A stretch of DNA of 16,932 nt from Candidatus Heimdallarchaeota archaeon (GCA_019057375.1 DXJF01000147.1:1-16932), one strand, 5' to 3'. Counted from the first letter of the stretch, positions 3 to 12,393 are shown. A program made the numbers and translations. The notes: generated by a model not told the origin, from the sequence alone.

Positions 3-878
3 GAAAAACTCTTTCTTATTGGAGCTAGTGGAAGCGGTAAAACAACGCTGGTGAATATAGTTGCTGGAATTACTAAACCCACTTCTGGTAAAGTTTTTTG
101 GAAAGATCTTTCTAAAGATATTACTAGATCAAGCTTGGAAGAGATAATTAAAGCCAGAAGGGCTTTTGCGGGAGTAGTTTTTCAAGATAGTCGATTACTT
201 CCTCATTTAACTGTAAAGGAAAATATTGAACTTGCAGGCTTTTATGCTAAGGTTTCCCCTAGAATCATGAAAAAGCGAGCAGAATTTCTATTGCAATTTC
301 TTGGTATTTGGGACAAAAGGAACAAAAGAGAAAATACCTTGTCTGGAGGAGAGAAGAAGAGAGCTGCTATTGCAACTACTCTAATAACAAATCCAAGGAT
401 ATTAATTGGAGATGAACCAACGGGTGATTTAGACGTTGTTACTGCTGAAAGTATTCTCGATTTATTTGATCGTATAAATGAAGAATTAGGAATTGCTCTT
501 TGTATTGTAACTCACTCCCAACAAGTTGCTGCTCGAGCAGATAGAATATTAGAGATAAAAGATGGGATAATTATAGGCCGCCATGGAAGAGAAGTAATAC
601 TAAGAAAGCTTGATGAAAGTCGTTTACTCGAAATAGATAGACAAGAGAGATTGGTTCTCCCCAGAGAAATTCTTCAGAGTATAAACAACCCCACTCATTT
701 CACTGCATCTACAAAAGAAGGAAAAATAATCCTAAATCCTGTCTTTGACCCAAATCTTTACAAAAACAATATACAAGATGTTATTACATGCTCAGTGTGT
801 GGAAAGCTAGTCGGAAATAGCGAACGCTTCTGTAATTCTTGTGGTTCTACAATTACTAGTAAAAAGGGAACGAAATGA
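3..878 (+). CDS. ABC transporter ATP-binding protein (LolD/FtsE/MacB-like), 5'-truncated, with C-terminal AbrB-like domain and zinc ribbon
   Basis: Frame is open from base 3 (EKLFLIGASGSGKTTLVNI, Walker A), so the start lies before the window and the GTG at 51 is internal. Q-loop VFQD, signature LSGGEKKR, Walker B/D-loop ILIGDEPTGDLD, H-switch IVTHS. Tail has EIDRQERLVLPREIL and CSVCG-x8-FCNSCG. Confidence 0.9.
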   Translation, partial: EKLFLIGASGSGKTTLVNIVAGITKPTSGKVFWKDLSKDITRSSLEEIIKARRAFAGVVFQDSRLLPHLTVKENIELAGFYAKVSPRIMKKRAEFLLQFLGIWDKRNKRENTLSGGEKKRAAIATTLITNPRILIGDEPTGDLDVVTAESILDLFDRINEELGIALCIVTHSQQVAARADRILEIKDGIIIGRHGREVILRKLDESRLLEIDRQERLVLPREILQSINNPTHFTASTKEGKIILNPVFDPNLYKNNIQDVITCSVCGKLVGNSERFCNSCGSTITSKKGTK

Positions 879-3397: not shown

Positions 3398-3426
3398 AAA
3401 AAACAGATGAGTTTCTAATTAAGATT

Positions 3427-6396
3427 CTAGTTATAAATCCTTAAAGTAGTTTTGCAGTATGGGCATCTCTCGTTTTCTTTTATCCAATCAACGAGATGTT
3501 TTATGTGAAACAGATGTTCACAAAATGGACATTCGATAGCATTTTCATAAACAGGTTGAAAGCACACCATACATTTTTGCTCTCTTAACTCAGCTAGTTG
3601 TTTTCCTTTTATTACTACTTTCTTGAAGAATTTAGCTATTTTAGATAGATTCTCTGCTACAATTATTGTTTCTTCTGTAATTTTTACTTTTTCCATTTTT
3701 CTTGGAGTGACATCACTTACCGTCGCATTTTTTGTTAAATAATCAATATAATTTCCGAGTATTGCTTTATCAATAAAAGGATCACCAACAACAATCAGTT
3801 TTTTCTTTGCCCTTGTAGCAGCAACATTTAACCGTCTTGCATCTGCAAAACCTCTCTTACTCTTTGTAGTAGATTCGGTTAAAGAAAGAACAATTAATTC
3901 ACAATCACTCCCTTGAAAACGATCAACAGTATCAACAGTTATCGTAGGAGAGAGATTTCTTCTAATTTCTGCAACCTGTCCTCGGTAAGGACAAATTATT
4001 CCTATTTGATCTGTTGTTAAACCAAAATCTAAAAAATTAGTAATTAATTCACTTACTACTTCAGCTTCTTCAACATTATACTTTTTCTCGGGATCAAAAA
4101 TACCATGAACTGGTATGAAGATTAAGGGATGTTTTGGGTCATATATTTCTGGACATTTAAATTTTGAATAATCCCCTCTGTAATTGGCTAATTCTAAAAG
4201 ATTCTGAAATTTAACTAGATCATCGAAGGATTTGAGTTTATTATCATAAAATCTGTCATTAGAAAATTCTATAAGTTTTTCATTCATCCTAAACTGATGA
4301 GTTAACAGATGTGTAGAGGTAGGATTACTCTCAGCTAACCGCTCAAACAATGAAATGCCCATATTTTCCTTTTGTGCTTTAAGACTTTGAACCACGGGAG
4401 GTAGTTGCTTATGATCACCTACCAAAATGAACCTGTTTCCTTCAAGTAAAGAAGATAAAATTGTTGGTTCAGTCATCTGACTCGCTTCATCAATGATAAT
4501 AGTTTGAATTCCTAATTTCTCATAAACTGGATTAGAAATAGTAGTGGTTGTAGCTACAATAATTGGATACTCTCCTAAAATTTCTCTAATGGATTTCTCA
4601 GGATTTTGTTTTTTGTAAAAGTCTAAAGTGTAATCTCGAATATCTTTTTGAATCGAATGAGAAGAACCGATTCTAATAAAATTATGAAATTCATTTTCTA
4701 GTAGATATTTACACACATTATCTACAGCTCTATTAGTAAATGCTGTAATTAGAATTGTTTGTCCCTGTTTAGCTAGCTCAATAGCCGATTTAGCTATCAC
4801 ATAAGTTTTTCCTGTGCCTGCAGGACCTTGAATAAGAGAGTAGTTTTTTGTTCCAAGAATCTTTTCAACAGCTTCATTTTGTGTAGGATTACTAGGAATA
4901 TATTTTCCTTTTACAGGTTCGGTTTCAGATTTACTAGCTTGAATAACTAATTCACGGAAAGGATTTCTTTTGAAAAGAAGATTAAACAAACCTCTTTGTT
5001 GTCTTCTAAAACCAACGTCTATTGAGTACATATCAATAGTTGAAACTGATTCTTGAGTTGATCTGGTTTCGATTTCTATTGATGTATTTGAAATGCCTGA
5101 AATCACCCCAGTACTTACAAAACCTTGCTTGATTCGCCCTTTACTTAAAACGACAATATCACCCTCACGAAGCTCACTGTTATTTTTACAAGAATATAAC
5201 AATCTAGTTGTACTACCTTCTTTTATCTCATTTTCCAAAGATAAATCAGCTATTGCTTTTCCTTTGTCAATTCTTTGATCAACTGAAAGTTTCCACAAAT
5301 CAGAAAGATTTCTTGCAGACTCGCTTTTATCAAATCTAATTAGTTTTGAAAATTTGTTAAAATACTCGATGTGAGTATCAGGTAGAAATTTCTTTGTACA
5401 GAGTTGTTCATGAGGACATATAGAGCAACTACGTTCTTGATTCAGGCCTGCACAAACTAAAGCACAATAGTGTTTTACAAAACAATTTCTGCATCTGTTT
5501 TGCTGAGATTCAGGAAGAATTGGAGGAACATAACCAAGATGGGAAATTCTGTAAGCGATGTTTCTATGCACCATACCATATCTCAAGAGTCCCCAATTAG
5601 GATTAGCAATTTTTTGAACAAGTTTATTTGTTCCAACATAGATAACACTTCCATCTCCAGGAGGGGATTCGTCTATATCAGTTTGAAGACCATATCGATA
5701 AAGAGATACTTGAAGAAGATCAGAAAAGCGAATATCCTTCTCTTCTGAAACTTTCCCAGTTTTTAACTCGTAGATTTTGTTGTCACTAAAGAGATCGATT
5801 CTACCTCTGATTCCGAAGAATGGAGAGAGGAATAAGATTTCAGGCAAAGCATTTGGAGGGAGATTTTCAACAAAAGAATCTAAACTTTCTGTCATTTTTC
5901 TAACATCTTGAAACACAGTCTCTTTCTTGTACCCAAAAATCTCATATTGAAGAGAAAAACTATCAAGAACCTTAGATAATTCCTCAGAGGGTTTAGAATT
6001 GTTGGATACAGCTAAACTAAGAGCATCATGAACAATGGAACCCCTAACAGCTATGTAAGGAGATGGAGTATCACCAACGATTTCATTGATATAATAACTT
6101 CGAGGGCAAAAGGATACGCTGTTAGCCGCTGTGGCATACATTAGAATATCAGGATCAACTACGACAATAGATTTAGAACCAGCTGAAAAATAGTAAGATT
6201 CATCATCTGCTATTTTATCAACATTAAAAATCTTCAAGGGGGTATATGGTTGGAGGTAATCTCCAATTTCGTGCCAGGGAGACCAAAGGTTAAGTATGAA
6301 GTGTTCTTTATCTACATCAATAAGTATAGTAGAAAGAGGATTGTTGCCTTCTTTTTGAGAGAGAGTTTTCAAGAACACACAGTCTAGATTAAGCAT
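3427..6396 (-). CDS. dna2: Dna2-like Fe-S nuclease / SF1B (Upf1-like) helicase with C-terminal RING-finger domain
   Basis: Probable start ATG 6396 (989 aa); the ORF-track extension to 6642 is intergenic-like and overlaps the longin gene. Dna2-type PDILMYATAANSVSFCPR, RecB/PD-(D/E)xK motifs EILF..GRID..ELKTG and QVSLY, Fe-S Cys set CPR...CRNC-x5-C. Helicase motifs GPAGTGKT, IIDEASQ, VGDHKQLPPV, QFRM, TVDRFQG, RRLNVAATRAK. RING-like CMVC-x10-CPFCEHLFHIKHL..W-x6-CPYC. Confidence 0.88.
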   Translation of the reverse strand: MLNLDCVFLKTLSQKEGNNPLSTILIDVDKEHFILNLWSPWHEIGDYLQPYTPLKIFNVDKIADDESYYFSAGSKSIVVVDPDILMYATAANSVSFCPRSYYINEIVGDTPSPYIAVRGSIVHDALSLAVSNNSKPSEELSKVLDSFSLQYEIFGYKKETVFQDVRKMTESLDSFVENLPPNALPEILFLSPFFGIRGRIDLFSDNKIYELKTGKVSEEKDIRFSDLLQVSLYRYGLQTDIDESPPGDGSVIYVGTNKLVQKIANPNWGLLRYGMVHRNIAYRISHLGYVPPILPESQQNRCRNCFVKHYCALVCAGLNQERSCSICPHEQLCTKKFLPDTHIEYFNKFSKLIRFDKSESARNLSDLWKLSVDQRIDKGKAIADLSLENEIKEGSTTRLLYSCKNNSELREGDIVVLSKGRIKQGFVSTGVISGISNTSIEIETRSTQESVSTIDMYSIDVGFRRQQRGLFNLLFKRNPFRELVIQASKSETEPVKGKYIPSNPTQNEAVEKILGTKNYSLIQGPAGTGKTYVIAKSAIELAKQGQTILITAFTNRAVDNVCKYLLENEFHNFIRIGSSHSIQKDIRDYTLDFYKKQNPEKSIREILGEYPIIVATTTTISNPVYEKLGIQTIIIDEASQMTEPTILSSLLEGNRFILVGDHKQLPPVVQSLKAQKENMGISLFERLAESNPTSTHLLTHQFRMNEKLIEFSNDRFYDNKLKSFDDLVKFQNLLELANYRGDYSKFKCPEIYDPKHPLIFIPVHGIFDPEKKYNVEEAEVVSELITNFLDFGLTTDQIGIICPYRGQVAEIRRNLSPTITVDTVDRFQGSDCELIVLSLTESTTKSKRGFADARRLNVAATRAKKKLIVVGDPFIDKAILGNYIDYLTKNATVSDVTPRKMEKVKITEETIIVAENLSKIAKFFKKVVIKGKQLAELREQKCMVCFQPVYENAIECPFCEHLFHIKHLVDWIKENERCPYCKTTLRIYN

Positions 6397-6549: not shown

Positions 6550-7026
6550 ATGGCAGACGATGTTTTTATTATTGATAGTAGTGGGGTTCCTTATTATAGT
6601 AGATGTTTTGGAGGAGAAACCTGTAAAATGAGACCAGATCATACACTACAAACAGGATTTTTAGCAGCGCTATATGCGTTTTCAAAAGAATCATATGGAC
6701 AACAGGAAATAAAAACAGTTGTCTTTTCAGACTTAAAATTGCATTTCAGAGTAGATAACGAAAGAGATGTGATAGTAGTATTTACTACACCAATGAGTGA
6801 AACAGATGAAGAAGTGAAAAATCAAATGGATATGACATACGGAGCATTTCTTGAATTGTATGAGAATCAAATAGGAAGAGGTTATGCAGAACCTGCAGTT
6901 TTCGATGGATTTGATGAAGTCTTATACAATTTGAAAGTTGTCAAATCTAAATCAATGGGTATGATAAATTTAGGAGAAAAAGTGCGAGGATGGAAAAGAC
7001 TGTTTAAAAAATATAAGCATAAATAG
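6550..7026 (+). CDS. Longin-domain protein (Asgard eukaryotic-signature type)
   Basis: Pattern VFIIDSSGVPYYSRCF / LQTGFLAALYAFSKE / IKTVVF..LHFRV..IVVF / FLELYE..VFDGFDEVL matches the beta-hairpin, helix, three-strand, two-helix layout of longin domains as I recall them from Asgard proteins. Confidence 0.72.
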   Translation: MADDVFIIDSSGVPYYSRCFGGETCKMRPDHTLQTGFLAALYAFSKESYGQQEIKTVVFSDLKLHFRVDNERDVIVVFTTPMSETDEEVKNQMDMTYGAFLELYENQIGRGYAEPAVFDGFDEVLYNLKVVKSKSMGMINLGEKVRGWKRLFKKYKHK

Positions 7027-7481: not shown

Positions 7482-9725
7482 TTATTTTATTTGGGTTGAT
7501 CTTCCTCTAGCAAAATCAGCGATAACAATGTAGGAAACTATTTTTGCAAATTCTGTAGAGCTACTTAAGATTCCAACAACTTCATTTGTTGCTTCATCTA
7601 CAGCTCCAATCAGAACTTCCTCGTTTTCTCTTTCAACTCCTATGAACTTTGGCAATTCTACTCCTGTACCCACATCTCTGAACTTTCTTACCTCAACATT
7701 TGCTTCTGCTGTATATGCTGAATCGATCCATTCTCTGTTTATCGTTTCATCTAGTTTTGTTACTATAGTAACTCTTACTGTTGAAGGTAAGGTTTTCACT
7801 GCATCTAGTGGTATATAGTCTGGATTTGGGGACATTATTGTTACACTTCTTTTTGCAGCTCTGACTATTCTATCCATATGATCTTTTGTAGCTTCTAATC
7901 CTGTTATTGATGTTGTTTCGACTCTAGGTATGGGTGATTCTCTAGTTGTTGCTTCTAGTGTTCTGAAATCGTTCTTCAATTTCATAGCTACTGTTAAAAG
8001 ATGATTTGCTGTATCTGTGAACTTTCCTTCAGTCTCAGCAAGAAATCTTGCAGCAGCATCTACTTCTTCAGTTAGATTTCCGGCAAGTTGATTTTTACTA
8101 TCAGTTATTTGAGCCTTTGAAGTTGTTACTATATCGTTTGTTATGTTACGGGTAGATTCTAAGGATTGATCCAAATAAGTTGATAATTCAGAGGAAATAG
8201 CAGAAGTTGAAGAATTGATCAAATTAACAGCTTCTTGATACTTTGAATTTATTGCTACTTCATTCTCTTGAGCAATTGTTTGCATTTGACTTGCTAAATC
8301 AGACCATTTTTCCTTTAGGTTGTTTGTCTCGTTTCCTAGCGTTTGGTTAATATTCTCATTTAGTTTTGTAGCAAGATTCCTAAAAGATTGAACATGATTG
8401 TTTAAATTGTCAACAATGCTGGTCACAATATCACTAAATTGAGTTGAAAAGTTCTCCTCAAAATTACTTAGTCTTGTTCTTGCAGTTTCCTGAATTTCTT
8501 GAATCTTATTGTTATAGCTCTGTAATGTTTCACTATATTGTGCATCAAGTTTTTGAGCAAACATGTCTCTTTCACTTGTTAAGTTGTTACGGTGTATTTG
8601 CTCACTGTTTTGAAGATTAGTATATTTAAGATTTATATCTTCTTTTATTTGTGACACAGTATTTGATAAGGCAAGGTTTTTCTGTTGAATGAGTTCATCA
8701 GATAAGGATTGTTTGATCTCTGAAACCTTATCATTTAGAGCAGATACAGCTTCTTGAACCTGAAGTGACAATTCTTCTACTTTTCTGTTTAAAAGCATCT
8801 CAAGTGAATTGTTTAACTCATTTAGTGAACCGGACACTGTTTCTGAAATTTCATCAACAGTTTCTCCAGTTGTTCTTACAGTTTCAGTTGAAAAGCTGAG
8901 ATTTTTGTCTGCTTGACTTTTAGTAAACGCTCTAACATCGATTTTTGTTAAATCAATACTTTCTTCCAAAAGTTGTGGAATTTCCCCCATATGAGCTGAA
9001 TAATTCTCCCCTAATAATTCCAACTTTGGTTTTAGGGGTTGAGATATTTCCTCAATTGATGTCAACGTTTGATTAACATTTTGATCTACTTGACTACTTG
9101 ATATGGAAGCACTTTCAGTATTATTTTGAGATATTTTTGCTTCTGCTGAATCTATTGATGATTTAGCGTTTGAAATACTATCTGTATTATTCTGTAATGT
9201 TTCTTGGACAAAATTCGTTAAACGCTGTTTTTGTTCATCTTGAATGGTAGAAATTTCGCGTTTAATTTCATTTGATTTTGATACTAGAAATTCCTTTTTC
9301 TGATTATGCATATTCTCTAATTCTGAAGATGAACTAGCTAATTTTTGATCTAACTCAGCTTCTTTTCTTGAAACAGATTCATTTAGCTGTGTTACAAGAT
9401 TGGTTCTTAGCTCATTAAACTCAGTTTTTTTGCTCTCCATGAAAGTTGAAGTGTTTGTCAAGTTATTCTTAACACTTGCACCAATTTGATCGCTACTTTC
9501 AGCAAGATATTCTAAAGGTATTCTAACGAAATATTTCTCGAAATACCCTTCAGATACACCTACAGCACCTTTTTTCTGCAATGCATCAAGAGCAACTTGA
9601 ACTTTCGAAAAATGGAGATTTCCAAATTGAGCTATTTCAAAAGCTGTTAATTGACCTGATCCTAACAAAATAGAATAAACTTGTTTTTCTTCTGGTGTTA
9701 ACTCTAATCTTTCAATAAATGACAT
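7482..9725 (-). CDS. TrmB-like wHTH protein with a very long central coiled-coil/helical region and C-terminal TrmB effector (PLD-like) domain
   Basis: N-term LELTPEEKQVYSILLGSGQLTAFEIAQ..SKVQVALDALQKKGAV fits the TrmB wHTH. About 500 aa of Pro-poor Q/E/N/S/T/L helical sequence follow. C-term ITGLEATKDHMDRIVRAAKRSVTIMSP..VRVTIVT..KFIGVERENEEVLIG fits the TrmB/PLD-like fold. AGGTGA RBS at 9732-9737. Confidence 0.75.
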   Translation of the reverse strand: MSFIERLELTPEEKQVYSILLGSGQLTAFEIAQFGNLHFSKVQVALDALQKKGAVGVSEGYFEKYFVRIPLEYLAESSDQIGASVKNNLTNTSTFMESKKTEFNELRTNLVTQLNESVSRKEAELDQKLASSSSELENMHNQKKEFLVSKSNEIKREISTIQDEQKQRLTNFVQETLQNNTDSISNAKSSIDSAEAKISQNNTESASISSSQVDQNVNQTLTSIEEISQPLKPKLELLGENYSAHMGEIPQLLEESIDLTKIDVRAFTKSQADKNLSFSTETVRTTGETVDEISETVSGSLNELNNSLEMLLNRKVEELSLQVQEAVSALNDKVSEIKQSLSDELIQQKNLALSNTVSQIKEDINLKYTNLQNSEQIHRNNLTSERDMFAQKLDAQYSETLQSYNNKIQEIQETARTRLSNFEENFSTQFSDIVTSIVDNLNNHVQSFRNLATKLNENINQTLGNETNNLKEKWSDLASQMQTIAQENEVAINSKYQEAVNLINSSTSAISSELSTYLDQSLESTRNITNDIVTTSKAQITDSKNQLAGNLTEEVDAAARFLAETEGKFTDTANHLLTVAMKLKNDFRTLEATTRESPIPRVETTSITGLEATKDHMDRIVRAAKRSVTIMSPNPDYIPLDAVKTLPSTVRVTIVTKLDETINREWIDSAYTAEANVEVRKFRDVGTGVELPKFIGVERENEEVLIGAVDEATNEVVGILSSSTEFAKIVSYIVIADFARGRSTQIK

Positions 9726-10788: not shown

Positions 10789-12393
10789 TTATTTTCCAAG
10801 AAATGTTTCTAATGAGGTTTGAGAACCTTCTTTGCTTTTATTATCTGTTGATTTTTTCTCTTCCTTTTCTTCTGTTTCAGAATCATCTACTTTCTTCTTT
10901 TTTGATTTATCTTGTGATTTATTGCTTTTCTCACCTTTATTATCAGTTTTTGTAGATCTTTCTTTAACAGCTGTCCCAGTTGTTTTTGTTTTAGTTGTTT
11001 TTTTTGATTTTTGTGATGATTTTTGAACAGGTTTTGTTGTTTTTTGTGTATAAAAAATCAAAGTTTGATTCATTTCTTTAGCTTTACTGATCCAATTTTC
11101 TGCCATTTGCAGATATGCTTCTTCTGAGTATTCTAGAATTCTTTTAGTAAGTTTGTTGGATTTATCAGTTAGGAAGAGGATATCTGATTCTTCATACTGA
11201 AACCAAGCTACTAAACCAGCAGCCATTCTCGGATTAGTATTGAAGATTACACGAATAAAGGGATAATAATCAACTTGAAAAGCTTTTTTTGAACAATGAA
11301 GTTGTTTTATACTTTTGTTTGCGATGCCTGTTATGCTAGCATTTTTACCTCTTAACCTTCCCATCAATGACCAATAGCTTGGGAAACCATATTTAGTATA
11401 TTTGAAGGATGATGTTTTTACTAAACCCACAGAGGAAATAAAAGTGAAGAAGTACTTGAGAAATTTCCAATCTTGCTTGATATAACAATGTTGTAAATAC
11501 ATATCCGCTTCTGCAATTAACTGATAAATACTAAATAACTCTTCAGATGAATCTGCTTGTTTATAGGCATGTTCGTAAACATAAGTAAGTAATTCTCTAT
11601 AGTCAACATCCACTCCGTCTAAGGCTCTTTTAGCAGAAGCAAAATCCTTAGCTCCAAAGATATTATTAAGAGCTGAATCCAAACTGTGTTTTTGATTTCT
11701 CGAGTCAAAAATAATTTTAATGTCCTTTGTAACAAAGGACGCCCCTTCTAAATCATTGATAGCAGACCTCGCATCACCACCGCTATTTTTAGTTATAGCA
11801 ATTAGTGTTTCCTCATTAGTATCCAATTTTTCCTCTTTAACAATCTTCTTGAGAAGAGCGAGAATTTCCTCCTCTTTTAAACTGTGGAACTCAATTACTA
11901 ACATATTTTTTTTAGCAGATTTCAACGAGGAAGCTGAAGGATCATTTGCGGTACATATTATCGGGGTTCTTGTCGCAGTTACAGCTCTCGCTAAAGCGCT
12001 TCCTCCACCTCTATCTTCATTTCCAAAAAGTCCGTCCGCTTCATCAACTAGAATCAATTTTCTGACCCTTGCTCCTTGGAGCACAGTTCCTTCAGTTGAT
12101 GCTCTTCCAACAAGTAGGTCAACGGCTTTTTTATTTCTTTTATCGCTAGCATTTACTTCAACAAATTCATAATTATATTTCTTTATTAGATAATATACTA
12201 CACTAGTTTTACCTACTCCAGCTGGTCCGGCCAATAGAGCAACTTTCTTCCTTTGTTGGTTCCAGTTTTTCAGCCAGTTTTCTAACTTCTGAACTGCCTC
12301 CTTGTTTCCAACAAAATCTTCTAATCGCTCAGGACGATATTTTTCAACCCAAGGCACAACTTGATTATCTTTATTACTAGCCATAAATGTCAT
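10789..12393 (-). CDS. rfcL: Replication factor C large subunit (start may be ATG 12384)
   Basis: PWVEKYRP, Walker A GPAGVGKT, EVNASD, Walker B LVDEADG, PIICTAND, GDARSAINDL. K/E/S/T-rich disordered tail ends in PIP box QTSLETFL (10798-10821). Confidence 0.93.
   Translation of the reverse strand: MTFMASNKDNQVVPWVEKYRPERLEDFVGNKEAVQKLENWLKNWNQQRKKVALLAGPAGVGKTSVVYYLIKKYNYEFVEVNASDKRNKKAVDLLVGRASTEGTVLQGARVRKLILVDEADGLFGNEDRGGGSALARAVTATRTPIICTANDPSASSLKSAKKNMLVIEFHSLKEEEILALLKKIVKEEKLDTNEETLIAITKNSGGDARSAINDLEGASFVTKDIKIIFDSRNQKHSLDSALNNIFGAKDFASAKRALDGVDVDYRELLTYVYEHAYKQADSSEELFSIYQLIAEADMYLQHCYIKQDWKFLKYFFTFISSVGLVKTSSFKYTKYGFPSYWSLMGRLRGKNASITGIANKSIKQLHCSKKAFQVDYYPFIRVIFNTNPRMAAGLVAWFQYEESDILFLTDKSNKLTKRILEYSEEAYLQMAENWISKAKEMNQTLIFYTQKTTKPVQKSSQKSKKTTKTKTTGTAVKERSTKTDNKGEKSNKSQDKSKKKKVDDSETEEKEEKKSTDNKSKEGSQTSLETFLGK

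What the first reader, a model, noticed from the sequence alone, without database searches (positions are those of the whole stretch)
3427..6396. Dna2-like nuclease-helicase fused to a RING finger: candidate ubiquitin-E3-coupled DNA-processing enzyme in an Asgard archaeon
Seen: one uninterrupted frame with intact RecB-family nuclease and SF1B helicase motifs, a ~50-aa helical linker, and at 3454-3573 C-x2-C-x10-CPFCEHLFH-x2-H-x3-W-x6-CPYC. Knowledge: this fits RING-H2 spacing including the E2-contacting Trp and terminal CPxC, with His at the sixth ligand. Canonical eukaryotic Dna2 has no RING; eukaryotes couple helicases and RINGs in Rad5/HLTF/SHPRH (SF2). Asgard archaea encode ubiquitin, E1, E2 and RING proteins. 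Inference: the enzyme could signal stalled forks, flaps or ends through ubiquitin-like conjugation, a prokaryotic analogue of eukaryotic replication-stress ubiquitylation. The RING might instead be only an interaction module.
Basis: partly seen in the sequence, partly recalled or inferred. Interest (0 to 1): 0.78.

Follow-up and report, generated by a model that had tools for sequence, protein, structure and literature searches.

The report
Heimdall archaeal Dna2 with RING tail
This Asgard (Heimdall-group) archaeon's single Dna2 enzyme, which cuts and unwinds DNA, ends in a conserved zinc finger of the kind eukaryotic ubiquitin ligases use, which suggests, without proving, that ubiquitin tagging was tied to DNA maintenance before eukaryotes arose.

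Summary
Window 3427-6396 (-) is one 989-aa frame with four parts:
- a Dna2-type PD-(D/E)XK nuclease with four Fe-S cysteines;
- an SF1B helicase;
- a poorly conserved tether of about 70 aa;
- a C-terminal RING at 3454-3573.

The RING's eight zinc ligands (C942, C945, C956, C959, H964, H967, C978, C981) are invariant in 74 homologous tails. A profile of those tails hits eukaryotic RING-H2 E3 ligases (Arkadia 8e-11). The predicted fold matches RNF38, Ark2C and HRD1.

The fusion is no accident or chimera:
- It occurs in four families of one Asgard class (f1 28/28 genomes).
- On a tree built without the RING, all RING-bearing proteins lie on one side of a single branch.
- Contigs from two independent runs bridge the junction.

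The genome encodes a pro-ubiquitin, E1s, two catalytic E2s (one UbcH5-like), a JAMM protease and 13 more RING proteins with the same His-x2-His signature. A co-fold of the RING with the UbcH5-like E2 gave only weak support (0.49 against 0.00).

E3 activity, substrates and DNA coupling remain inferred. This scan has already found the same fusion in at least 13 other genomes. I found it in no paper.

The parts
3427..6396 (-). Whole coding sequence of the Dna2-RING protein (989 aa, plus the stop codon at 3427-3429)
   Evidence: It is one open frame. Homologues of 977-1014 aa align end to end.
5464..6132 (-). PD-(D/E)XK nuclease domain with a 4Fe-4S site (residues 89-311). Catalytic D201, E210 and K212 lie at 5761-5796. 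The Fe-S cysteines are C97 (6106-6108), C302, C305 and C311 (5464-5493).
   Evidence: Pfam finds PDDEXK_1 at 89-311 and Dna2 at 52-178. All named residues are invariant in 28 full-length homologues.
4897..5379 (-). Middle region between nuclease and helicase (residues about 340-500). By alignment it corresponds to the barrel/stalk part of Dna2.
   Evidence: It lies inside the single stretch 190-903 that aligns to mouse DNA2. The domain label is an inference; I did not model it here.
3781..4890 (-). SF1B helicase core (residues 503-872). Walker A GPAGTGKT is at 4804-4827 and the DEAS box at residues 636-639.
   Evidence: AAA_11 scores 126 bits and AAA_12 scores 152.6 bits. The motif residues are invariant.
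3574..3780 (-). Tether between helicase and RING (residues 873-941), variable in sequence
   Evidence: pLDDT is 54-69 and the alignment has no conserved columns here.
3454..3573 (-). RING finger of C4H2C2 type (residues 942-981). Ligands are C942, C945, C956, C959, H964, H967, C978 and C981. E2-contact-type residues are V944, W971, P979 and K982.
   Evidence: The eight ligands are invariant in 74 tails. zf-RING_2 scores 29.4 bits. The tail profile hits Arkadia, gp78 and HRD1 RINGs at 1e-9 to 1e-11. The fold matches RNF38 and Ark2C.

Best explanation
The gene encodes the genome's only Dna2-family enzyme. An Fe-S-containing PD-(D/E)XK endonuclease and an SF1B (5'-3' type) helicase act on single-stranded DNA flaps or ends. 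A flexible tether of about 70 residues carries a cross-brace RING finger at the C-terminus.

The RING belongs to a lineage-specific branch of the RING-H2 E3-ligase family. It has Cys at ligand 4 and His at ligands 5 and 6.

Most likely the RING recruits a ubiquitin-charged E2, probably the UbcH5-like E2 encoded elsewhere in the genome. Ubiquitin would then be transferred to Dna2 itself or to proteins close to the DNA structure that Dna2 is working on.

**Shown:** the architecture, the intact catalytic motifs, the RING homology and predicted fold, deep conservation of the fusion, and the presence of Ub, E1, E2 and a deubiquitinase in the genome.

**Inferred:** E2 binding, ligase activity, the targets, and any dependence on DNA.
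For: **Architecture and motifs**
- Pfam finds Dna2, PDDEXK_1, AAA_11, AAA_12 and zf-RING_2 in one frame.
- Nuclease residues D201, E210, K212, Q229 and Y233 are invariant in 28 full-length homologues. So are Fe-S cysteines C97, C302, C305 and C311, and Walker A/B.
- The best solved match is mouse DNA2, at 9e-63 over residues 190-903.

**RING homology and fold**
- Eight ligands are invariant in 74 tails.
- The tail profile hits Arkadia at 8e-11, gp78 at 5e-10 and synoviolin at 1.5e-9. PHD fingers score only about 2e-3.
- The AF2 RING part has pLDDT 84-91.
- Foldseek's top hits are all RING-H2 E3s at probability 0.99-1.0.
- VIA gives RNF38 Z 7.4 (rmsd 3.0 over 67) and Ark2C Z 7.1.

**E2-contact positions under selection**
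- The residue two after C1 is I, V or L in 74/74 tails.
- Trp971 is kept in 70/74.
- Lys/Arg follows the last Cys in 45/45 tails of the window's clade and the distant clade.

**Partners in the genome**
- There are two catalytic E2s. One has the UbcH5-type YPFKPPKV, H-x-N, Cys84 and W-T-P-A features, and its nearest eukaryotic relatives are UBE2D/E.
- There is a pro-ubiquitin ending GG-L, E1s and a JAMM protease beside the second E2.
- Thirteen other RING proteins carry the same H-x2-H-[LI]-x2-W signature.

**Co-fold of the RING with the UbcH5-like E2**
- The score was 0.49 (runs 0.47-0.51) against a best control of 0.00, graded 'weak support'.
- That mark was reached by 58 of 80 solved complexes and 2 of 110 mismatched pairs. 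At 0.60 or under it was reached by only 7 of those 80 solved complexes and by both mismatches that passed.
- The runs agree in at least 97% of contacts, and partner pLDDT is at least 79.
- Similar RING-UbcH5 complexes are solved, so the pass may reflect likeness only.

**Conservation of the fusion**
- It is present in f1 28/28, f2 10/11, f3 1/1 and f5 11/21 genomes.
- RING-bearing proteins fall on one side of a single branch (SH-aLRT 94) on a tree built without the RING and linker.

**A natural contrast**
- In one 85%-complete genome I found only Cys-less UEV-like E2 homologues. Its Dna2 tail keeps the eight ligands but lacks the Trp.

**Precedent**
- Archaeal E1/E2/RING cascades work in vitro in Caldiarchaeum (PMC5654768) and Helarchaeia (bioRxiv 10.1101/2023.07.25.550441).
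Against: - Nothing here tests ligase activity.
- The co-fold is weak and may come from the model's memory of solved complexes.
- The Hod-like clade replaces the Pro of C-P-x-C with Val/Ala and the basic linchpin with Gln. Its RING may therefore be a poorer E2 activator or serve another role.
- No ubiquitin-system gene lies next to the gene in any family, and synteny is conserved only within family f1.
- The E2 is much more widespread than the fusion (145/301 genomes), so co-occurrence does not discriminate.
- The natural contrast rests on one incomplete genome.
- The ligand pattern (C4H2C2) is not the canonical C3H2C3.
- Fold Z scores under 8 are middling for so small a domain.
Confidence: 0.55

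Rival explanations
1. The RING is a zinc-stabilised protein-protein module with no ligase activity. It might serve dimerisation, autoinhibition of the nuclease-helicase, or docking to a replication or repair partner such as PCNA, RPA or RFC.
For: - Many RING and U-box folds serve as scaffolds. The fold search also returns the TFIIH p44 RING and Prp19 U-box dimers at Z about 6.
- The Hod-like clade lacks the Pro and the basic linchpin.
- One lineage keeps the eight ligands without the Trp. The zinc fold is therefore retained even where E2-contact features are lost.
- In a closed relative genome the gene abuts the RFC large subunit gene.
Against: - The E2-contact-type surface residues (I/V/L, Trp, Lys/Arg) are conserved in most clades.
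- Sequence similarity is highest to active RING-H2 ligases.
- The genome holds a UbcH5-like E2 with the RING-binding Phe and Pro-Ala features.
Confidence: 0.25
2. The protein is part of an accessory or defence-type nuclease-helicase system rather than a replication or repair Dna2. Its RING would then serve signalling or regulation in immunity.
For: - It is patchy in family f5: 11 of 21 genomes have it, and the genomes without it include a closed genome rated 96% complete.
- Dna2-like proteins with other fusions are common in bacteria, for example kinase-Dna2 in Ktedonobacteria.
- The helicase core resembles the Mokosh MkoA and ProA helicases.
Against: - No defence family is matched beyond the generic helicase core (ProA 59.5 bits against a cut-off of 1500).
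- The gene is single-copy and present in 28/28 genomes of its family.
- It sits in a conserved housekeeping neighbourhood with RFC large subunit, ribosomal protein L37Ae-type, Rrp42 and Brix genes.
Confidence: 0.1
3. The tail is a nucleic-acid- or ligand-binding zinc finger (a PHD-like or other treble-clef reader) that only resembles a RING.
For: - The C-x2-C-x4-H-x2-[H/C] spacing of ligands 3-6 equals that of PHD fingers (read from the sequence; PHD spacing is from general knowledge).
- PHD fingers appear among weak profile hits at 2e-3 to 4e-3.
Against: - RING-H2 ligases score eight orders of magnitude better than PHD fingers.
- Trp971 sits four residues after ligand 6, as in RING-H2. It is not two residues before ligand 7, as in PHD.
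- All top fold matches are RING or U-box.
Confidence: 0.07
4. The fusion is an assembly chimera or a single-genome accident.
For: The genome is a fragmented metagenome assembly of 159 contigs, 89% complete.
Against: - The same architecture occurs in more than 70 non-identical proteins from many assemblies, including single-contig genomes.
- Contigs of two independent runs bridge RING, tether and helicase without gaps.
Confidence: 0.01

Closest known systems
Eukaryotic Dna2 nuclease-helicase (mouse DNA2, PDB 5EAN/5EAW/5EAX)
   Same: - A PD-(D/E)XK nuclease with an Fe-S cluster is followed by an SF1B helicase in one chain.
- It is the best solved match, at 9e-63 over residues 190-903.
- The Pfam Dna2 domain scores above its cut-off.
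   Different: - Mouse DNA2 ends with the helicase and has no RING.
- By score the archaeal protein is nearer to haloarchaeal (about 400 bits) and bacterial (about 290-350 bits) Dna2-like proteins than to mouse DNA2 at 216 bits.
- Its relationship to eukaryotic Dna2 was not resolved here.
RING-H2 E3 ubiquitin ligases (Arkadia/RNF111, RNF38, RNF165/Ark2C, gp78/AMFR, HRD1/synoviolin)
   Same: - Cross-brace spacing of eight ligands.
- His at ligand 5.
- A hydrophobic residue after C1, Trp after ligand 6, and C-P-x-C followed by a basic linchpin.
- Best sequence and fold matches.
   Different: - Ligand 4 is Cys rather than His. It forms a C-x2-C pair with C956, upstream of the canonical position.
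- Ligand 6 is His rather than Cys.
- The RING is attached to a DNA enzyme.
- Activity is untested.
Rad5 / HLTF / SHPRH (helicase-like proteins with a RING)
   Same: One polypeptide combines a DNA-dependent ATPase motor with a RING. This is the eukaryotic precedent for coupling DNA-structure recognition to ubiquitylation.
   Different: - Those are SF2 SNF2-family translocases with the RING inserted inside the ATPase domain, and they have no nuclease.
- Here the motor is an SF1B helicase, a nuclease is present, and the RING is a tethered C-terminal tail.
- There is no homology beyond the RING.
Archaeal E1/E2/small-RING cascades (Caldiarchaeum subterraneum, PMC5654768; Helarchaeia, bioRxiv 10.1101/2023.07.25.550441)
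   Same: - These are archaeal RING proteins shown to work with archaeal E1, E2 and ubiquitin in vitro.
- The present genome has the same set of components.
   Different: Those RINGs are small stand-alone proteins encoded in ubiquitin operons. This one is fused to Dna2 and lies far from any ubiquitin gene.
Haloarchaeal and bacterial Dna2-like proteins (for example Natrinema; Ktedonobacteria kinase-Dna2)
   Same: They share the same nuclease-helicase body at 30-35% identity.
   Different: - They end right after helicase motif VI or carry other fusions. None has the RING.
- They lie on the other side of the tree branch.

Membership tests
Dna2 nuclease-helicase family | PD-(D/E)XK nuclease catalytic residues (D, E-x-K, Q-x3-Y) | tested here: met
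   D201, E210, K212, Q229 and Y233 are invariant in 28 homologues. PDDEXK_1 scores 44.8 bits against a cut-off of 22.
Dna2 nuclease-helicase family | Four cysteines for a 4Fe-4S cluster spanning the nuclease domain (C...C-x2-C-x5-C) | tested here: met
   C97, C302, C305 and C311 are invariant. That these are Fe-S ligands follows from knowledge of Dna2 and AddB, not from a test here.
Dna2 nuclease-helicase family | SF1B helicase C-terminal to the nuclease in the same chain | tested here: met
   AAA_11 scores 126.1 bits and AAA_12 152.6 bits. Walker A, the DEAS box and the arginine residues are invariant. Mouse DNA2 aligns over residues 190-903.
Dna2 nuclease-helicase family | Pfam Dna2 (PF08696) above its gathering score | tested here: met
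   43.3 bits against 22.4.
Dna2 nuclease-helicase family | Orthology with eukaryotic Dna2 on a tree | tested here: inconclusive
   No named eukaryotic sequence could be brought into the tree. A long homologue that I took for eukaryotic proved to be from Ktedonobacteria, and an atlas look-up was ambiguous.
Dna2 nuclease-helicase family | 5' flap/ssDNA endonuclease and 5'-3' helicase activity | not testable with these tools
   This needs biochemistry.
RING-type E3 ligase domain (zf-RING_2 / RING-H2) | Eight zinc ligands in cross-brace spacing | tested here: met
   C942, C945, C956, C959, H964, H967, C978 and C981 are invariant in 74 tails.
RING-type E3 ligase domain (zf-RING_2 / RING-H2) | Canonical RING-H2 ligand identities (C3H2C3: His at ligands 4 and 5, Cys at 6) | tested here: not met
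   H961 is not conserved, while C956 is invariant. Ligand 6 is His. The pattern is therefore C4H2C2, a variant shared with the other RINGs of this genome.
RING-type E3 ligase domain (zf-RING_2 / RING-H2) | Pfam zf-RING_2 above its gathering score | tested here: met
   The 70-aa tail scores 29.4 bits against 27.3, but the same domain scores only 22.9 bits when the whole protein is scanned. It scores 29.5 bits in the six-frame genome search.
RING-type E3 ligase domain (zf-RING_2 / RING-H2) | Cross-brace RING fold | tested here: met
   This rests on a predicted model only, with pLDDT 84-91. The top Foldseek and VIA matches are RNF165, RNF38, gp78, RNF12 and HRD1. Zinc geometry could not be inspected.
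RING-type E3 ligase domain (zf-RING_2 / RING-H2) | E2-contact residues (hydrophobic after C1, Trp after ligand 6, Pro in C-P-x-C, basic linchpin) | tested here: met
   This protein has V944, W971, P979 and K982, and they are conserved in its clade. The Hod-like clade has V/A and Q at the last two positions.
RING-type E3 ligase domain (zf-RING_2 / RING-H2) | Binds a cognate E2 | tested here: inconclusive
   The co-fold with the host's UbcH5-like E2 scored 0.49 against a best control of 0.00, graded 'weak support'. It may reflect likeness to solved complexes.
RING-type E3 ligase domain (zf-RING_2 / RING-H2) | Stimulates ubiquitin transfer from E2 | not testable with these tools
   This needs an in vitro ubiquitylation assay.
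Rad5/HLTF/SHPRH | SNF2 (SF2) ATPase with a RING inserted between its lobes | tested here: not met
   The motor is SF1B (AAA_11/AAA_12, with the nearest solved helicases IGHMBP2 and UPF1). The RING is C-terminal.
Prometheus ProA / Mokosh MkoA defence helicases | Full-length match to the family model | tested here: not met
   ProA scores 59.5 bits against a cut-off of 1500. The MkoA match covers only helicase residues 612-872.

The most novel reading that the evidence does not exclude
Dna2-RING is a DNA-structure-gated ubiquitin ligase. When the nuclease-helicase engages a flap, a resected end or a stalled fork, the tethered RING brings a UbcH5-like E2~Ub to mark nearby replisome or repair proteins, or Dna2 itself. 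On this reading, replication-stress ubiquitin signalling of the Rad5/Rad18 kind existed in Heimdall-group archaea before eukaryotes.
Probability: 0.2. Interest if true: 0.85.

Novelty: new variant of a known kind. Interest (0 to 1): 0.62.

Why it matters
Ubiquitin control of DNA replication and repair (PCNA, Rad5/HLTF, Rad18, Fanconi) is regarded as a eukaryotic feature. A RING of the E3-ligase type has been welded to Dna2 across a whole class of the archaea closest to eukaryotes. It is the first concrete and cheaply testable candidate for such a link in a prokaryote.

The protein, both E2s, the E1 and ubiquitin can be expressed and assayed with and without flap DNA. If the protein is active, it gives a minimal model of DNA-coupled ubiquitylation. 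If it is inactive, it shows a RING recruited for another use. Either result bears on how the eukaryotic ubiquitin network grew.

Tried and rejected
- **Eukaryotic sequences not obtained.** I assumed that long homologues with N-terminal extensions were eukaryotic Dna2. A search with P0144 showed they are Ktedonobacteria kinase-Dna2 fusions. Cluster look-ups gave almost no names, and an atlas look-up of P0148 was ambiguous between Chloroflexota and eukaryotes. The relationship to eukaryotic Dna2 therefore stays untested.
- **No RNA evidence.** No RNA holder is listed among the public runs. The one run labelled RNA-Seq is probably DNA, so nothing can be said about expression.
- **PHD finger considered and rejected.** Profile hits are 2e-3 against 8e-11 for RING-H2, and the Trp sits at the RING position.
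- **Defence systems considered and rejected.** Mokosh, Prometheus and PLuB match only through the generic helicase core.
- **Alternative start rejected.** The start at 6642 does not fit the homologue alignments and overlaps a conserved gene.
- **Zinc geometry not checked.** Model coordinates are not exposed, so I could not measure zinc-site geometry.
- **Literature.** Searches for Dna2 with RING, Asgard or Heimdallarchaeota found no description of the fusion. The library lacks most subscription journals.
- **Other RING proteins.** Pfam found no second domain in ten other RING proteins of the genome.
Full report
**Observation**

The minus strand of window 3427-6396 translates to one uninterrupted 989-residue protein. 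A longer frame from an ATG at 6642 exists. Its 82 extra residues are low-complexity and overlap the conserved divergent gene 6550-7026. Homologues from related genomes also align from residue 1 of the short form.

Pfam finds the following:

| Family | Residues | Score | Cut-off |
|---|---|---|---|
| Dna2 (PF08696) | 52-178 | 43.3 bits | 22.4 |
| PDDEXK_1 | 89-311 | 44.8 bits | 22 |
| AAA_11 / AAA_12 | 503-872 | 126 / 153 bits | 27 |
| zf-RING_2 | 941-982 | 29.4 bits (isolated tail) | 27.3 |

zf-RING_2 scores 22.9 bits when the whole protein is scanned. The quoted motif lies exactly at 3454-3573.

**The enzyme body**

In an alignment of 28 full-length homologues these residues are invariant:
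- nuclease residues D201, E210, K212, Q229 and Y233;
- cysteines C97, C302, C305 and C311, in the C...C-x2-C-x5-C layout known to hold the Fe-S cluster in Dna2 and AddB;
- Walker A (524-531), the DEAS box and the arginine fingers.

Among solved structures the best match is mouse DNA2, at 9e-63 in one stretch covering residues 190-903. IGHMBP2 and UPF1 follow, matching the helicase only. Mouse DNA2 ends where that stretch ends, so it has no RING.

No anti-phage family is matched beyond the generic helicase core. The gene is single-copy in the genome.

**The RING**

I aligned 74 non-identical C-terminal tails. C942, C945, C956, C959, H964, H967, C978 and C981 are invariant, and L968 and W971 are at least 90% conserved. 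The rest averages 30% identity.

The histidine that canonical RING-H2 spacing would make ligand 4 (H961) is Gln in 26 of 27 Hod-like tails, whereas C956 never varies. The second ligand pair is therefore C956/C959, and the pattern is C4H2C2 with His at ligands 5 and 6.

A profile of the tails hits eukaryotic RING-H2 ligases:
- Arkadia at 8e-11;
- gp78/AMFR at 5e-10;
- synoviolin/HRD1 at 1.5e-9;
- RLIM, RNF165 and RNF38 at lower scores;
- PHD fingers only at about 2e-3.

The AlphaFold model has pLDDT 84-91 over the RING and 54-69 over the preceding roughly 60 residues, which are not predicted helical. Foldseek's best matches are all RING-H2 domains, at probability 0.99-1.0 and rmsd 1.3-2.5 A over about 46 residues. 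The E-values are weak because the domain is small. VIA-align gives RNF38 Z 7.4 and Ark2C Z 7.1, followed by RNF12, RMR1, HRD1 and U-boxes. A Z under 8 is middling taken alone, but the list is uniform and agrees with the sequence result.

The surface positions that RING-H2 ligases use to hold an E2 are conserved:
- The residue two after C1 is I, V or L in 74/74 tails.
- Trp971 is present in 70/74.
- Pro979 and a Lys/Arg 'linchpin' after the last Cys are present in all 45 tails of the window's clade and the most distant clade.
- The Hod-like clade has Val/Ala and Gln at those two positions.

That these positions contact the E2 comes from knowledge of the solved RING-UbcH5 complexes.

**Is the fusion real and old?**

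The architecture recurs in more than 70 proteins from many assemblies. Some are labelled Heimdallarchaeaceae, Hodarchaeales or Heimdallarchaeum aukensis, and some lie on megabase contigs.

I searched a sample of 300 genomes of the phylum. Full-length matches reaching the RING occur in four families, all in the window's class:

| Family | Genomes with the fusion |
|---|---|
| f1 | 28/28 |
| f2 | 10/11 |
| f3 | 1/1 |
| f5 | 11/21 |

Other Asgard families gave only helicase-core hits with this query.

I built a quick maximum-likelihood tree from the protein body with the RING and linker removed. It places all 28 RING-bearing sequences on one side of a single branch (SH-aLRT 94) and all 25 RING-less haloarchaeal and bacterial sequences on the other. 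The RING side has three deep subclades. The tree is unrooted, uses a simple model, and was flagged for compositional heterogeneity.

Contigs from two independent sequencing runs bridge RING, tether and helicase without gaps. One is 1177 nt and covers 3449-4300. The other is 688 nt and covers 3405-3869. A chimera is excluded.

**The ubiquitin system of the host**

The genome (159 contigs, 89% complete) has four UQ_con matches:
- Two are catalytic E2s. One is a 155-aa UbcH5-like protein with YPFKPPKV, H-A-N, Cys84 and W-T-P-A. The other is a 176-aa E2 that sits beside a JAMM protease and a membrane RING protein.
- Two are Cys-less UEV-like proteins with coiled-coil tails.

This is the same 2+2 pattern that Hatano et al. 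reported for Heimdallarchaeota AB125 (PMC9192718).

A ubiquitin gene ending GG-L lies in an operon with an E1 and a UEV-like gene. The nearest eukaryotic relatives of the UbcH5-like E2 are UBE2D/E, at about 39% identity. Its orthologue is in 145 of 301 sampled Asgard genomes and in nearly every genome that has the fusion. It is far more widespread than the fusion, so co-occurrence is compatible but not informative.

Thirteen other proteins of this genome end in RINGs with the same H-x2-H-[LI]-x2-W...C-P-x-C signature. Some have the C-x2-C second pair, and most have membrane-like N-termini. Pfam sees no second domain in the ten I scanned. The Dna2 tail is therefore one member of a lineage-specific RING family, and the only one attached to a known enzyme.

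**Co-fold**

I folded the RING (tail residues 50-108 of alignment A1) with the UbcH5-like E2 (alignment A3). It scored 0.49 (runs 0.49, 0.47, 0.51) against 0.00 for the best of three controls, which the tool grades as weak support.

The mark was reached by 58 of 80 solved complexes and 2 of 110 mismatches. Scores of 0.60 or under were reached by only 7 of those 80 solved complexes and by both passing mismatches. The runs agree in at least 97% of contacts, and partner pLDDT is at least 79. RING-UbcH5 complexes are abundant in the PDB, so the pass may show likeness rather than binding.

**A natural contrast**

In the one family-f3 genome sampled (85% complete) I found only two UQ_con matches. 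Both are UEV-like without a catalytic Cys. The genome has only three RING matches.

Its Dna2 tail keeps all eight ligands, but the stretch between ligands 6 and 7 is shortened and lacks the Trp. This fits an E2-dependent role for the Trp elsewhere. It is one incomplete genome and counts only as a lead.

**Context**

Within family f1 the gene sits in a conserved housekeeping neighbourhood. The neighbours are a TrmB-coiled-coil protein, a phosphoribosyltransferase, the RFC large subunit, ribosomal protein L37Ae-type, a Brix protein and Rrp42. In one closed genome it abuts RFC-L. In f2 and f5 no neighbour is shared. No ubiquitin gene is adjacent anywhere I looked.

**Interpretation**

The most likely reading (about 0.55) is a working Dna2 whose tethered RING recruits a charged E2 and ubiquitylates Dna2 itself or proteins nearby on DNA.

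The main rival (about 0.25) is a RING used only as an interaction or regulatory module. It is favoured by the linchpin and Pro changes in the Hod-like clade and by the Trp-less lineage that still keeps its zinc ligands.

A defence-type role for the enzyme body (about 0.1) is suggested by its patchiness in f5, but its context and universality in f1 argue against it. A PHD-like reader (about 0.07) and an artefact (about 0.01) are unlikely.

**Known or new**

Working archaeal E1/E2/RING cascades are published (PMC5654768; bioRxiv 10.1101/2023.07.25.550441). So is the Asgard ubiquitin-ESCRT link (PMC9192718). None of the papers found mentions a Dna2-RING fusion.

This scan has already reported the same fusion in at least 13 other genomes with the same verdict, so the present window is another instance, not a first sighting.

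- the corrected ligand assignment;
- the shared His-x2-His RING family within the genome;
- the clade-specific linchpin differences;
- the one-branch tree;
- the bridging contigs;
- the weak co-fold;
- the Trp-less lineage in which no catalytic E2 was found.

I class it as a new variant of a known kind: known enzyme, known module, unreported and conserved combination.

Noticed in passing
G000 contigs C12, C124, C154, C116 (three genes), C118, C107, C57, C99, C3, C97, C117 (loci L011-L024, L068): Thirteen further proteins end in RING fingers with His at ligands 5 and 6 (H-x2-H-[LI]-x2-W...C-P-x-C). Most have several membrane-like segments, including a 905-aa protein. Pfam recognises nothing in them but the RING. 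This looks like a lineage-specific expansion of membrane RING-H2-like proteins.
   Followed up: partly
L002 (G000:C97:1255-4728): A compact cluster holds a catalytic E2 (176 aa, H-P-N and Cys), a JAMM/MPN protease and a multi-pass membrane protein ending in a RING.
   Followed up: partly
L004/L005 (G000:C132:24235-29018): One operon holds a ubiquitin ending GG-L, a 334-aa E1 and a 455-aa Cys-less UEV-like protein with a long coiled coil, probably a Vps23-type ESCRT-I protein.
   Followed up: partly
window 6550-7026 (+): A 158-aa gene is transcribed divergently from Dna2-RING and is conserved next to it in the same genus (81% identity). It has no Pfam or NCBIfam family. Atlas features place it in Asgard-only clusters, with a Roadblock/LAMTOR2/longin-like lead at 0.91.
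   Followed up: partly
window 7482-9725 (-): A 747-aa protein has an N-terminal TrmB winged helix followed by about 500 residues of coiled-coil-like, Apolipoprotein-type repeats. It is a conserved neighbour of Dna2-RING within the family.
   Followed up: no
window 10789-12393 (-): The RFC large subunit homologue carries a Lys/Glu/Ser-rich C-terminal tail of about 90 residues. In a closed relative genome this gene directly abuts Dna2-RING.
   Followed up: no
window 3-878 (+): The ABC-transporter ATPase carries a C-terminal extension that ends in a C-x2-C...C-x2-C zinc ribbon.
   Followed up: no
proteins P0144, P0352-P0366 (Ktedonobacteria): Bacterial Dna2-like nuclease-helicases are fused to an N-terminal protein kinase domain (PF00069/PF07714). 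The Dna2 body therefore recruits different signalling domains in different lineages.
   Followed up: no
The genome search families f2 and f5; tree: Dna2-RING of family f2 (same order as the window) is more divergent from the window's protein (about 31% identity) than that of f5 (a different order, about 36%). On the tree f2-like sequences are the deepest RING subclade. This points to unequal rates or an old transfer inside the class.
   Followed up: no
G092 (L069-L071): In this genome (85% complete) I found only Cys-less UEV-like E2 homologues and three RING matches. Its Dna2 tail keeps the eight zinc ligands but lacks the conserved Trp.
   Followed up: partly
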